Shown here one piece after another: positions 4,010 through 7,879 of a DNA stretch of 20,000 nt. The notes beneath the pieces are model-generated. The model saw only the letters and a program-made list of their open reading frames with translations. It ran no database searches and had not been told where the DNA came from. The position numbers and the translations under genes are program-made. The DNA comes from Chiloscyllium plagiosum (Eukaryota). Where the stretch lies: contig NC_057751.1 of the NCBI RefSeq assembly GCF_004010195.1, positions 15,034,219 through 15,054,218 on the forward strand. Reading direction: 5' to 3'. How positions within the stretch are numbered: position 1 is the first letter of the stretch; every line of letters begins with the position of its first letter.

Positions 4010-5100
4010 TTCAGAATATTGTTTAAAGTAGATTGTCAAATTAAAGTAAAAGATTTGTAGATACATAAGCAATGGCAAAACTGTGGAAAAGGAATTGCCT
4101 CTCAAGGAATAAAATAGCATTGGAAAACATTCCTGTTGTGGCAAAGTAATGAAGTAAAGATTAGATTCAAAGAAGCAGCTTTCAATGTTACCAAAAAGGG
4201 TGTTGTGAGCCAGAGGATTTTAAAAATCAAGAAAACCTGACCAAAAAAATGAGATAATGAGGATGAAAGAACAGGAGGAAGCCAGCAAGAAAATAGATAG
4301 TCAAAGCTTTTCTGAGAACTTATAAGAAAGGAATTAGTGGAATTAAAATTGACCCATGGAGGCAAAGGCAGGAGAAATTACAAGTGAAAATAACAATATG
4401 TCAGATATTAGGTCAAGAAATAATTCTTTATAATGTCATAATGGATACGCTAAGAAAAATAATCATTATTTGGGAACTGAACATTTAATGACAGTAAGGA
4501 ATTAAATTCAAATTGTGAAGTTGTCATAAGGTTTAAAAAGAGGAGCTGCAAAATTATTAGAAGCATTGGTTTTGATTTTCCAGTATTGTTAGATTTTAGG
4601 AGAAAGTGAGGACTGCAGATGCTGGAGATGTGCATTGAGAGTGTGGTGCTGGAAAAGCACAGCAGGTCAGGTCGCATCAGAGGAGCAGGAGAATCGATGT
4701 TTCGGGCATAAGCCCTTCAACAGGAATCAGATATTAGGACTGTCCCCATGGATTGGCAAGTAGTAAATATGACTCTGCTATTCAGGAAGGGCAAGAGAGA
4801 GAAAACTTCAAATTAAAGGCAAACCAGGTGTATTAACTGTCGCTCCAAATTGATCCATTGACATTTTAGATCCAGAGACAAATCAAAAATGATCAATAAC
4901 TGATAGATTAAGAGTTAAGGAGACTCAAAGGAATTTTAGTGTGATGTTCATGTGCACAAATAAAAGTTAGTTGACAGATTTTAGAATTAATTTAACAACA
5001 TTAATAGAATCATTCTCTAAAGTTAGCATAATGAGGAATAGTAGTAAAGACCTCACTCAAAGTATTGTATTCAATTTTGGGCCCTGTACCTCAGGCAAGA
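4010..5100 (+). mobile_element. Highly decayed CR1 LINE ORF2 fragments
   Basis: 4742-4806 translates roughly VPMDWQVVNMTLLFRKGKREK, the CR1 pre-RT motif. The surrounding sequence is A-rich and degenerate; boundaries are approximate. Confidence 0.55.
4599..4728 (-). mobile_element. Penelope-like terminal-repeat fragment with degenerate hammerhead core
   Basis: Same family as 6648-6875 (ggagaaagtgaggactgcagatgct...). Flanked by agattttagga (4591-4601) and agatattagga (4729-4739). Confidence 0.7.
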
Positions 5101-5763: not shown

Positions 5764-5848
5764 ATGTCTGAGGGTCCGTCCAAGATATCTGGTCCCATTC
5801 CACCAGACCCAACACTATTCCCAGATTTCTACAAGCGTCCAATGTCAG
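5764..5848 (+). CDS. ENKD1: ENKD1 coding exon 1 (MSEGPSKISGPIPPDPTLFPDFYKRPMS)
   Basis: ATG in AAGATGT context. Peptide matches the recalled ENKD1 N-terminus (MCEGPSRISGPIPPDPTL in human). Donor CAG|GTGAGG; 85 nt, phase 1. Confidence 0.95.
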
Positions 5849-6647
5849 GTGAGGTTTTACCTTTTTGTTTCCAGTGAAGTGCTTTCCATCTTCCTTTTGT
5901 GTTATTCTCATCTGAGAGGAAACAAAGTTGAAAGAAGTGTTTCTGCATGCAATGATTCTTGCCCTTTTGCCCATTCTATGCAATGGCTTAAGGTAGTCTG
6001 AAAGAACAAATTTAAACAAGAAATAACTTTTCCTAGCTACATTTGAAATAGAGTAATTGTGCAGGTACAGTATATTTGTAGAAACATGGGAAAGTAACCA
6101 ATTGGAATCTAATTGAGAGCTTCATGGTGTTGTTATAGATACAATGATTGGACACCCTATTAATACTAGGCTGAAATTCAGTCGAGAACTAAGTGCAAGT
6201 AATTGGGTGAGTGAAGATTCATATTCAGTAATTACTCCCCCAGTGTTGAATATTTCACAATATCTAATTAATAACAAATATGGTTTCAATTTTTATAATC
6301 TGATTCTGATTTTTTCGTTAGTTTAGTACTATTCCTAAAAATGACGGTTGCATAGGATGAAAGAGTAAAGGTGCTAATTGTTTTATCATTAATTATCCTG
6401 AATAGGGTTTGTTGTACAGATGGTGAGTGATCTTTGGGAGGTTTGTGATAAGACTCTTAACACACTTGGAGGATATCTTGAAACATAACTATTTAAACAA
6501 TTGTTTAACTGAGAATATGATAACCTTGAAACAAATGTTGGGCACTTTGCAATTTGACATTGAAAATTTTGCTCCTCTTTCTCCTCAGATGAGAGTCAAA
6601 TTTACCCAGTGTTGTTCTATGCCTGCAAAACTGAGCTCAGTAAAGAA

Positions 6648-6875
6648 GGAGAAAGTGAGGACTGCAGATGCTAGAGATCAGAGCTTAAAAATGTGTTGCT
6701 AGAAAAGCGCAGCAGGTCAAGCAGCATCCATGGAACAGGAGAATCAACGTTTTGGGTATAAGCCCTTCTTCAGGGCTTATTCCTGAAGAAGGGGTTATGC
6801 CCGAAACGTCGATTCTCCTGTTCCTTTGATGCTGCCTGACCTGCTGCGCTTTTCCAGCAACACATTTTTAAGCTC
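6648..6875. mobile_element. Penelope-like foldback insert (94-bp inverted arms) with hammerhead cores
   Basis: Arms 6681-6774 and 6782-6875 with a 7-nt loop, plus an unpaired ~30-nt tail at 6650-6680. Direct repeat agctcagtaaagaagg at 6634-6649 and 6871-6886. Confidence 0.8.
6783..6810 (+). ncRNA. Candidate minimal hammerhead ribozyme motif
   Basis: CUGAAGA-A-GGG(GUUAUG)CCC-GAAAC-GUC: both conserved core boxes, helix II and a GUC triplet are present. Helix I is weak. Confidence 0.55.
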
Positions 6876-7051
6876 AGTAAAGAAGGGAAAAGATATTGAT
6901 GGTTTTCATTTCTTGTAATTGTTCAGTTACAATTTTGGAAGCTGACACGATCAATTCAGCATTAAGATCCTCATGGCTGAATGATCAATTTACAGGTTGT
7001 ATATACTGACAAATATGTCTAATTGTTTTTGTCTTCTGTTTTTCACTGCAG

Positions 7052-7276
7052 CTCGGGGTCGGCTAGAAGGGAATAGCTTAAAACTAGACTTCCTTTTGGG
7101 ACCATTAGCCCCTGATCCCACCTTGTACCCCTCATGCTACAGTGCCCGCCCATCGCGGCCAGGCCCACGTGTGCGTTCAAATGCCAGAGAGATCCTGGAG
7201 AGAGGGCAAAAGGGCTCTGTCGGCATGCTGCTGCAGCTGGAAGGAGCATCGTTATATCGACCGTTGTCACCAAAAA
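7052..7276 (+). CDS. ENKD1: ENKD1 coding exon 2 (ARGRLEGNSLKLDFL...EILERGQKGSVGMLLQLEG...SPK)
   Basis: Acceptor ttttcactgcag, donor A|GTAAAT; 225 nt, phase 1 to 1. GRLEGN.LKLD and EILERGQ motifs match ENKD1. Confidence 0.95.
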
Positions 7277-7474: not shown

Positions 7475-7843
7475 GATTTGACTAGCTTCACAACAGGCTA
7501 CCTAGACCCTAACCACTGAAATTCCCTCTTTAAACCTAATTTTCCCTTCTCTCAATACTGATCATGTTCACTGAGGTGAGTAAAAGATGGTGTTGACTGA
7601 TTCTCAGTTGAATGGAATAAAAGACTACCTTTGGCAAATGAGGAGCCAGTTTTGCAGTGATGATTTCAAGGTATTTTTGGTTTTGACTATTGTGCCTTGA
7701 CTCTGATACCAATTGAAAACAATATATCTCTCTTTTACTGACCTCATTGATCATGATCAGTACTGGGAGAAGGGAAAATTAGGTTTAAAGAGGGAATATC
7801 AGTGGTTAGGATTGAGGTAGCCTGTTGTGAAGCTAGTCAAATC
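7475..7843. repeat. Long inverted repeat / foldback (MITE-like), 113-bp arms
   Basis: 7475-7587 versus the reverse complement of 7731-7843: 9 mismatches and no gaps by manual alignment; 143-bp spacer. Confidence 0.9.
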
Positions 7844-7879
7844 GGGGGTGCACAAACAGCCAGAATTGGAGGAGCACAC

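What the first reader, a model, noticed from the sequence alone, without database searches (positions are those of the whole stretch)
6634..6886. Intact sense-strand hammerhead core locked in a 94-bp hairpin within an ENKD1 intron
Seen: CUGAAGA-A-[GGG/CCC helix II]-GAAAC-GUC at 6783-6810 on the pre-mRNA strand, with palindromic ACGU in place of a helix III loop. The upstream arm is its antisense copy (GAAA changed to AAAA). The insert has a 16-bp flanking direct repeat and an unpaired ~30-nt tail. Established: Penelope-like retroelements carry minimal type-I hammerheads in their terminal repeats, proposed to work as dimers, and often insert with inverted ends. Inference: a non-autonomous ribozyme-bearing element whose antisense arm masks the ribozyme, ~175 nt upstream of an exon acceptor; also a likely ADAR/Dicer substrate. 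Helix I is weak, so activity is uncertain.
Basis: partly seen in the sequence, partly recalled or inferred. Interest (0 to 1): 0.7.

Follow-up and report, generated by a model that had tools for sequence, protein, structure and literature searches.

The report
Penelope retroelement hairpin stub in intron
The hairpin and its hammerhead-ribozyme motif are real, but they are one of very many mirror-image stubs left by a known kind of jumping gene; this copy has a weakened stem, is predicted to stay locked in the hairpin, and likely does nothing to its host gene.

Summary
Observation confirmed: 16-nt target duplication, 31-nt tail, 94-bp arms (86/94 paired) and an intact minimal hammerhead core at 6783-6810, in a spliced intron (5849-7051) of an enkurin-domain gene. 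It is not special. In 1.07 Mb sampled elsewhere in this genome, 173 insertions of this or related units occur, 52 of them hairpins (about 170,000 extrapolated); 16 of 52 keep an intact core. The unit is the pseudo-LTR of an RT + GIY-YIG Penelope-like element with a Neptune-type linker. Across copies the core is conserved and the helices covary, so the ribozyme was selected in the element. This copy has lost one helix II pair, and the hammerhead fold costs about 40 kcal/mol against the hairpin. It is likely a stub built at insertion rather than a self-propagating non-autonomous element. The same junction recurs 19 times, with the tail on either arm (6 vs 7), which fits two separately primed cDNAs joined head to head. 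Inverted pseudo-LTR plus tail plus TSD, and these hammerheads, are published. The scan has noted such stubs many times on other DNA (89 notes). Editing and small RNAs could not be tested. Ordinary.

The parts
6634..6649 (.). Left copy of the 16-nt target-site duplication; its last 3 nt also match the element (microhomology)
6650..6680 (-). 31-nt PLE 'tail' (unit positions 95-125, numbering from the C before the core), present on one arm only
   Evidence: 46 of 52 sampled hairpins have exactly one tail
6681..6774 (-). Long, tail-bearing arm: pLTR unit positions 1-94 on the minus strand; hammerhead core broken (GAAA>AAAA at a CpG)
6775..6781 (.). Head-to-head junction; includes a short templated piece of the unit (positions 12-17); the same 28-nt junction occurs 19 times in the genome
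   Evidence: templated origin read from the sequence
6782..6875 (+). Short arm: pLTR unit positions 1-94, sense to the host pre-mRNA
6783..6810 (+). Minimal type-I hammerhead core, intact boxes, palindromic ACGU in place of helix III; helix II reduced to 3 bp by C>G at 6794; helix I 2 contiguous bp; predicted cut after C6810
6871..6886 (.). Right copy of the 16-nt target-site duplication; its first 5 nt also match the element
5849..7051 (+). Host intron (GT..AG), spliced in RNA reads, of an enkurin-domain gene (ENKD1 by recall)

Best explanation
This is a short head-to-head stub of a very abundant Penelope-like retrotransposon, likely made in one step at insertion and likely a neutral passenger in the intron, whose hammerhead motif is predicted to be locked in the hairpin. 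Shown: the unit is the element's pseudo-LTR and occurs both after the GIY-YIG domain and directly before the ORF. Shown: hairpin + one tail + 10-17-nt TSD is the family's standard product, and both arms carry the same subfamily letters. Inferred mechanism: the GIY-YIG endonuclease nicks both target strands about 15 nt apart. Each 3' end primes the RT inside the element RNA, one at about +127 to +130 (tail end) and one at about +81 to +97. Both cDNAs run to a strong stop at about -10 to +9, just before the hammerhead (likely the RNA start; a local fold-back palindrome is the alternative). The two cDNA ends are then joined through 1-3-nt microhomology. In the host pre-mRNA the antisense arm is made first and would pair with the sense arm as it emerges, so the ribozyme, which would also need a dimer partner and probably the element's protein, would not fold.
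For: Abundance: 173 insertions, 52 of them hairpins, in 1,067,031 non-N bases; bootstrap 1.2-2.3e5 hairpins genome-wide; shuffled queries gave 0 hits in 5 of 5 on the first 50 stretches. Partner: GIY-YIG (Pfam E 0.0015, below cut-off) and a C-x4-C-xx-C linker upstream of the unit in L031; RVT_1 E 5.7e-8 in L174; the unit runs on into the ORF in L209. Same template: arms differ at 55 of 526 subfamily-variable sites (10.5%) vs 31.9% for shuffled pairs, minimum 24.1% in 1000 shuffles. Built on the spot: 46 distinct junctions in 47 hairpins; the window's junction recurs with the tail on the left in 6 and on the right in 7 of 13 examined, in different subfamilies and with different short-arm ends. 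Strong stop: 63 of 94 arms start at -10..+9 and 1 of 94 further upstream. Masking: helix II pair probability about 2e-14 in the element; the forced hammerhead fold costs 39.7 kcal/mol. Decay: 8 arm mismatches, one of which breaks a helix II pair of the 'intact' copy. Literature: two RT start sites bounding the tail, both strands cut and extended, ribozyme cutting only with protein (PMC11167929).
Against: The insertion has been kept in at least two species labels (organisms B and C). This fits neutrality at about 3% intron divergence but does not exclude a function. The right arm has 1-2 of the 8 arm differences and the left arm 6-7; on so few changes this is not significant, but it is the direction that selection on the sense copy would give. 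The link between the unit and the ORF start rests on 1 of 18 loci, with N upstream. Twin priming is inferred from geometry; fold-back by two different routes could in principle give both junction polarities, and PMC3846280 prefers self-priming on an antisense template. Folding energies ignore kinetics and proteins.
Confidence: 0.88

Rival explanations
1. A self-propagating non-autonomous hairpin element (SINE-, MITE- or retrozyme-like) that is transcribed and copied as a hairpin by the PLE enzyme.
For: Very high copy number and stereotyped size; the exact junction recurs 19 times; PLE pLTRs can give rise to non-autonomous retrozymes (10.64898/2026.07.22.740005, part 1 and passages).
Against: Copies sharing the junction differ in which arm has the tail (6 vs 7), in subfamily letters and in short-arm end; 46 of 47 junctions are distinct, and the one repeat is a local duplicate. 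Published non-LTR retrozymes are direct tandem repeats, not inverted pairs.
Confidence: 0.05
2. Each hairpin arises from one cDNA primed at the tail that folds back on itself (self-priming) and is copied out to the second target strand. The passenger status is the same; only the mechanism differs.
For: The arms share subfamily and even rare letters; the templated piece in the junction shows that cDNA ends do fold back briefly; PMC3846280 (passages) argues for self-priming at inverted junctions.
Against: The same asymmetric junction occurs about equally with the tail on either arm; a short arm primed at +81..+97 cannot template the tail, so fold-back needs two different routes to one junction. 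In several hairpins it is the tail-bearing arm that is the more 5'-truncated, so its partner holds sequence it could not supply. In vitro, both strands are extended from two start sites (PMC11167929).
Confidence: 0.2
3. The host has co-opted the insert: a ribozyme held off by its antisense arm, or an edited hairpin, tunes splicing or stability of the enkurin-domain gene's pre-mRNA.
For: The core boxes are intact and sense-oriented about 175 nt from the acceptor; the insert is shared by two species labels; the sense arm has fewer changes than the antisense arm.
Against: 52 of 126 sampled arms that cover the core keep it intact by chance of age; this copy lost a helix II pair; masking is about 40 kcal/mol; related ribozymes need a dimer or the element's protein (PMC4209133, PMC11167929); the intron is spliced at the expected sites.
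Confidence: 0.04

Closest known systems
EN+ Penelope-like element insertions with inverted pLTR, one-sided tail and TSD (Pen2a_Av, PMC3846280; general scheme in PMC8557442; passages read)
   Same: Head-to-head inverted pLTR, a 31-nt tail on one end, a TSD, and a pLTR that leads into the ORF.
   Different: Here the whole body is missing, leaving only two pLTR pieces; TSDs are longer (mode 15 vs 8-10 in the rotifer examples); copy number is in the hundreds of thousands.
[quoted passage not shown]
   Same: CUGANGA and GAAA boxes, a bulged nucleotide before helix II, a G10.1-C11.1 pair, palindromic 15.2-16.2, no helix III; most copies dispersed and truncated, some pairs close together on opposite strands.
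   Different: Helix II is only 4 bp in the family and 3 bp in this copy; helix I is 2 contiguous bp. No cartilaginous fish is named in the parts read; supplements were not read.
Poseidon element of Anolis, PAc (Frangieh et al. 2024, PMC11167929; parts 1-2 of 4 read)
   Same: RT start sites internal to the RNA about 110-130 nt past the hammerhead, two sites bounding the tail, both target strands cut and extended.
   Different: This element has the Neptune/Nematis-type linker motif; stub ends show modest microhomology to the target (mean about 1.5 nt), whereas PAc primed without homology in vitro; in L209 the long ORF's first in-frame ATG lies beyond the tail rather than in stem II.
Non-LTR retrozymes (10.64898/2026.07.22.740005; part 1 of 5 and passages read)
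   Same: PLE-pLTR-derived, carry type-I hammerheads, encode no protein.
   Different: Retrozymes are direct tandem arrays that can form dimeric ribozymes; this is an inverted pair with one hammerhead per strand.

Membership tests
EN+ Penelope-like element | RT and C-terminal GIY-YIG endonuclease in the partner ORF | tested here: met
   RVT_1 E 5.7e-8 above cut-off in L174; GIY-YIG E 0.0015 below cut-off, with recognisable motif, just upstream of the unit in L031. Seen in separate broken copies; no intact ORF was found.
EN+ Penelope-like element | pLTR found at both the 3' end and in front of the ORF | tested here: met
   After the endonuclease frame in L003, L010, L024, L028, L029; before the ORF in L209, 1 of 18 loci examined.
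EN+ Penelope-like element | Inverted pLTR, 30-40-nt tail on one end, TSD | tested here: met
   Window; 46 of 52 hairpins with one tail; TSD of 9 nt or more in 22 of 52 distinct hairpins, 10-17 nt.
Neptune/Nematis clades | CX2-5CxxC linker between RT and EN (PMC8557442) | tested here: met
   C-x4-C-xx-C read in L031/L003 and L029 translations.
Neptune clade | RT phylogeny groups with Neptune | not tested
   No reference PLE proteins were at hand; no tree was built.
Minimal type-I hammerhead | Conserved core boxes, bulge, palindromic 15.1-16.1 | tested here: met
   Window match; 10 non-CpG core positions vary 2.6% vs 9.8% for 50 flank positions, p 7e-5; 54 descriptor hits vs 0-1 in 5 controls.
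Minimal type-I hammerhead | Stable helices I and II in this copy | tested here: inconclusive
   Helix II 3 bp (51 of 54 descriptor hits have 4 or more), helix I 2 bp; helix II probability 0.23 for the isolated motif and about 2e-14 in the hairpin.
Minimal type-I hammerhead | Self-cleavage | not testable with these tools
   Indirect only: 3 of 226 arms begin exactly at the cut site (+30) against about 1 per position nearby: inconclusive.
Non-LTR retrozyme | Direct tandem units each with a hammerhead | tested here: not met
   The two copies are inverted.
Self-propagating non-autonomous hairpin element | Copies share one fixed junction, orientation and ends | tested here: not met

The most novel reading that the evidence does not exclude
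The genome's roughly 100,000-plus stubs are an in vivo record of how Penelope-like elements integrate: both strands of a 15-nt staggered cut prime reverse transcription at two internal sites on RNA from one source element, both cDNAs run off the RNA start just before the hammerhead, and they are joined head to head. This symmetric twin priming would explain the inverted pLTR, the one-sided tail and the TSD in one step, and would replace self-priming on an antisense template.
Probability: 0.55. Interest if true: 0.45.

Novelty: new member of a known kind. Interest (0 to 1): 0.15.

Why it matters
For the host gene, probably not at all. For retroelement biology, the family gives a very large natural sample of PLE insertion products. 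Tail-side-independent junctions and a sharp stop before the hammerhead extend the in vitro work on PAc and bear on the open question of how inverted pLTRs form. The stubs also put on the order of 1e5 long inverted repeats into one genome, a possible dsRNA reservoir comparable to inverted Alus (comparison recalled, not tested).

Tried and rejected
Rfam scan: no hammerhead family; MIR821 and mir-3179 hits are below gathering and reflect a long hairpin. Two independent RNA templates for the two arms (prompted by the T/G difference at unit position 46): rejected, because arms are concordant at subfamily sites (48 of 52 hairpins used; dropped one duplicate and three with long spacers). ADAR signature in DNA: none of the left-arm changes is A>G on the transcribed strand. 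Editing in RNA: no RNA holder was listed. In run X21, 1,282 reads were laid, 97% running on into unlike sequence, and the unique intron bins had no depth; X22 laid none. So no test was possible. Hammerhead cleavage read from copy ends: inconclusive. An apparent end peak at +47, and part of the peak at -2 among solo copies, come from older related families that diverge from my reference there, so only tight hairpins were used for the strong-stop claim. TSD search on solo copies was weak (9 of 120). Pfam found nothing in the two exons flanking the intron. A first ORF-start search found no unit-ORF link in 30 loci. Literature: 'Penelope + shark + Neptune + hairpin' gave 0 papers; 'bamboo shark + Penelope + transposable elements' gave 2, not read (the species term was a guess). 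'Twin priming' occurs 0 times in the nine listed papers that mention pLTRs. The library lacks most subscription papers and Repbase/Dfam, so absence from print is not shown. Lunse et al. on dimer cleavage was not held and is known only through review passages (PMC6765202).

Full report
Observation. The insert spans 6634-6886. It has identical 16-nt direct repeats (6634-6649, 6871-6886), a 31-nt unpaired tail (6650-6680), two 94-nt inverted arms (6681-6774, 6782-6875; 8 mismatches) and a 7-nt loop. The element folds at -164 kcal/mol. A minimal hammerhead core lies at 6783-6810 on the + strand; it is the only match in the window to a degenerate pattern expected 0.01 times by chance. RNA reads and contigs join 5848 to 7052 across a GT..AG intron, and two downstream exons hit Pfam Enkurin, so the core is sense to the pre-mRNA of an enkurin-domain gene. 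The name ENKD1, and my impression that the host is a shark, are recalled and not tested.

How common it is. A search of the own genome with the right arm gave 1,168 candidates, of which 40 were scored; one other copy is 100% identical. For an estimate not chosen by the query, I took 110 stretches of 10 kb at round coordinates on 42 large contigs. They were hand-picked, not random draws, and unplaced contigs were not sampled. In 1,067,031 non-N bases there were 226 arms in 173 insertions, 52 of them head-to-head hairpins, and 46 of the 52 had exactly one tail. Extrapolated, that is about 5.8e5 insertions (bootstrap 4.8-6.8e5) and 1.7e5 hairpins (1.2-2.3e5). Counting only copies at least 85% identical to the reference gives 101 insertions and 36 hairpins; the wider count includes older related families. 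Of 126 arms that cover the core, 52 keep it intact, and 16 of 52 hairpins have at least one intact core. An intact sense core in an intronic hairpin is therefore expected many thousands of times.

What the unit belongs to. In several loci the unit follows a frame encoding a C-x4-C-xx-C linker and a GIY-YIG domain, preceded by RT fragments (Pfam GIY-YIG E 0.0015, below cut-off; RVT_1 E 5.7e-8 in L174). PMC8557442 (passages) gives that linker as the mark of the Neptune and Nematis clades; no tree was built. None of 30 loci from a first search showed the link. In 1 of 18 loci examined from a second search (L209), the unit runs without a break through the tail into the N-terminal ORF. Several stub tails extend by the same 1-3 letters that follow in L209. 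So the unit is the pseudo-LTR and RNA leader, and the tail end is an internal point of the RNA, as shown in vitro for the Anolis element (PMC11167929, parts 1-2 read).

Is the hammerhead real? At family level, yes. Ten non-CpG core positions vary 2.6% against 9.8% for 50 flank positions (p 7e-5). None of the 10 core positions, but 16 of 64 others, carries a common variant. The free N of CUGANGA and loop II are among the variable ones. A helix II pair switches from G-C to A-U together in 13 of 159 arms, possibly one inherited event. A structural descriptor found 54 motifs in the sample against 0, 0, 1, 0, 0 in Markov controls. They fall into several families with different helix II and helix I sequences, and with ACGU or AGCU palindromes. 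This matches the min-HHR of PMC4209133 (parts 1-2 read), which did not cut as a monomer and cut weakly as a dimer. This copy is weaker than the family. Position 6794 is G where 142 of 159 sampled arms have C, as do 253 of 265 RNA reads from paralogues, so helix II is 3 bp instead of 4; helix I is 2 contiguous bp. In the hairpin, helix II pairs have probability about 2e-14 and the forced hammerhead fold costs 39.7 kcal/mol; the isolated motif reaches only 0.23.

How the hairpin forms. Arms within a hairpin agree at subfamily-variable sites: 55 of 526 differ (10.5%), against 31.9% for shuffled pairs and 7.8% at invariant sites (48 of 52 hairpins used). They therefore come from one source element, and the 8 differences in the window arose largely after insertion. 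In 47 tight hairpins, 63 of 94 arms start at -10..+9, only 1 starts further upstream, and 3 start at +29..+32; long arms end mostly at +127 and short arms mostly at +81..+97. TSDs were found in 22 of 52 distinct hairpins (13 from query-chosen loci, 8 from the hand-picked set, 1 other), 10-17 nt, mode 15, with a rough mean overlap of about 1.5 nt with the element at each end. Junctions are nearly all different (46 of 47). The window's exact 28-nt junction recurs 19 times, with 0 matches for the control pattern. Among the window and the 12 other copies fetched (of 18), the tail is on the left arm in 6 and on the right in 7, in different subfamilies and with different short-arm ends; one of the left-tail copies has a more complex junction. 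A hairpin master copying itself would fix all of these. I infer two cDNAs, primed by the two target strands at the two internal sites, running to a stop before the hammerhead and joined by microhomology. Self-priming, favoured in PMC3846280 (passages), remains the rival.

Age and host effect. Contigs of three runs of organism B (one study) run from 5718 through the TSD 20 nt into the tail, with 26-27 differences in about 950 bases. Organism C contigs cover both junctions. So the insert predates the split of two labels about 3% apart, consistent with 8.5% arm divergence. The sequence of the sense core in organism B could not be read. The sense arm carries 1-2 of the 8 arm differences, which is too few to show selection. 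Editing and small RNAs could not be assessed.

Comparison and verdict. Inverted pLTR, one-sided 31-nt tail and TSD are described in PMC3846280 and PMC8557442; the hammerhead in PMC4209133; internal priming in PMC11167929. I found no paper on this family in sharks, but Repbase, Dfam, most subscription papers and supplements were not seen. The scan holds 89 earlier notes on the same kind of stub and one nearby. The locus is a new member of a known kind and very likely a passenger. The only added value is the family-level evidence on how PLE inverted ends are made. Interest 0.15.

Noticed in passing
window 4601-4731: Older solo copy of the same unit with tail (81% identical to the left arm) on the minus strand in the upstream intron; its hammerhead core is broken.
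   Followed up: partly
window about 7500-7560 and 7760-7850: A second inverted pair of about 70 nt, roughly 200 nt apart, in the next intron; seen by eye, not of this family.
   Followed up: no
window 5847: Some spliced reads and contigs of organism C carry a different letter just before the donor; it looks like an allele, not alternative splicing.
   Followed up: no
L095, L139, L140, L142, L097 and L077, L139, L140: At least two further hammerhead-bearing repeat families in the genome: one with a 5-bp GGAGC/GCUCC helix II and an AGCU palindrome, one with a long helix II; helix I covaries between families.
   Followed up: partly
L041, L084, L091, L096, L149: A subfamily with a 4-bp helix I (AUUC/GAAU); a better substrate than the window's subfamily for a cleavage test.
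   Followed up: no
L187-L199 (G000:C1:136150183-136153037): A 213-bp tandem array of at least 13 units that include the element's N-terminal ORF fragment: a satellite derived from the PLE body.
   Followed up: no
L020 left flank: A copy of the unit inserted next to what looks like the RT region of a different Penelope-like element (recalled motif).
   Followed up: no
run X21: About 1,200 of 13 million poly(A) single-cell reads match the unit at 93% or more, on both strands: the family is widely transcribed, passively or not.
   Followed up: no
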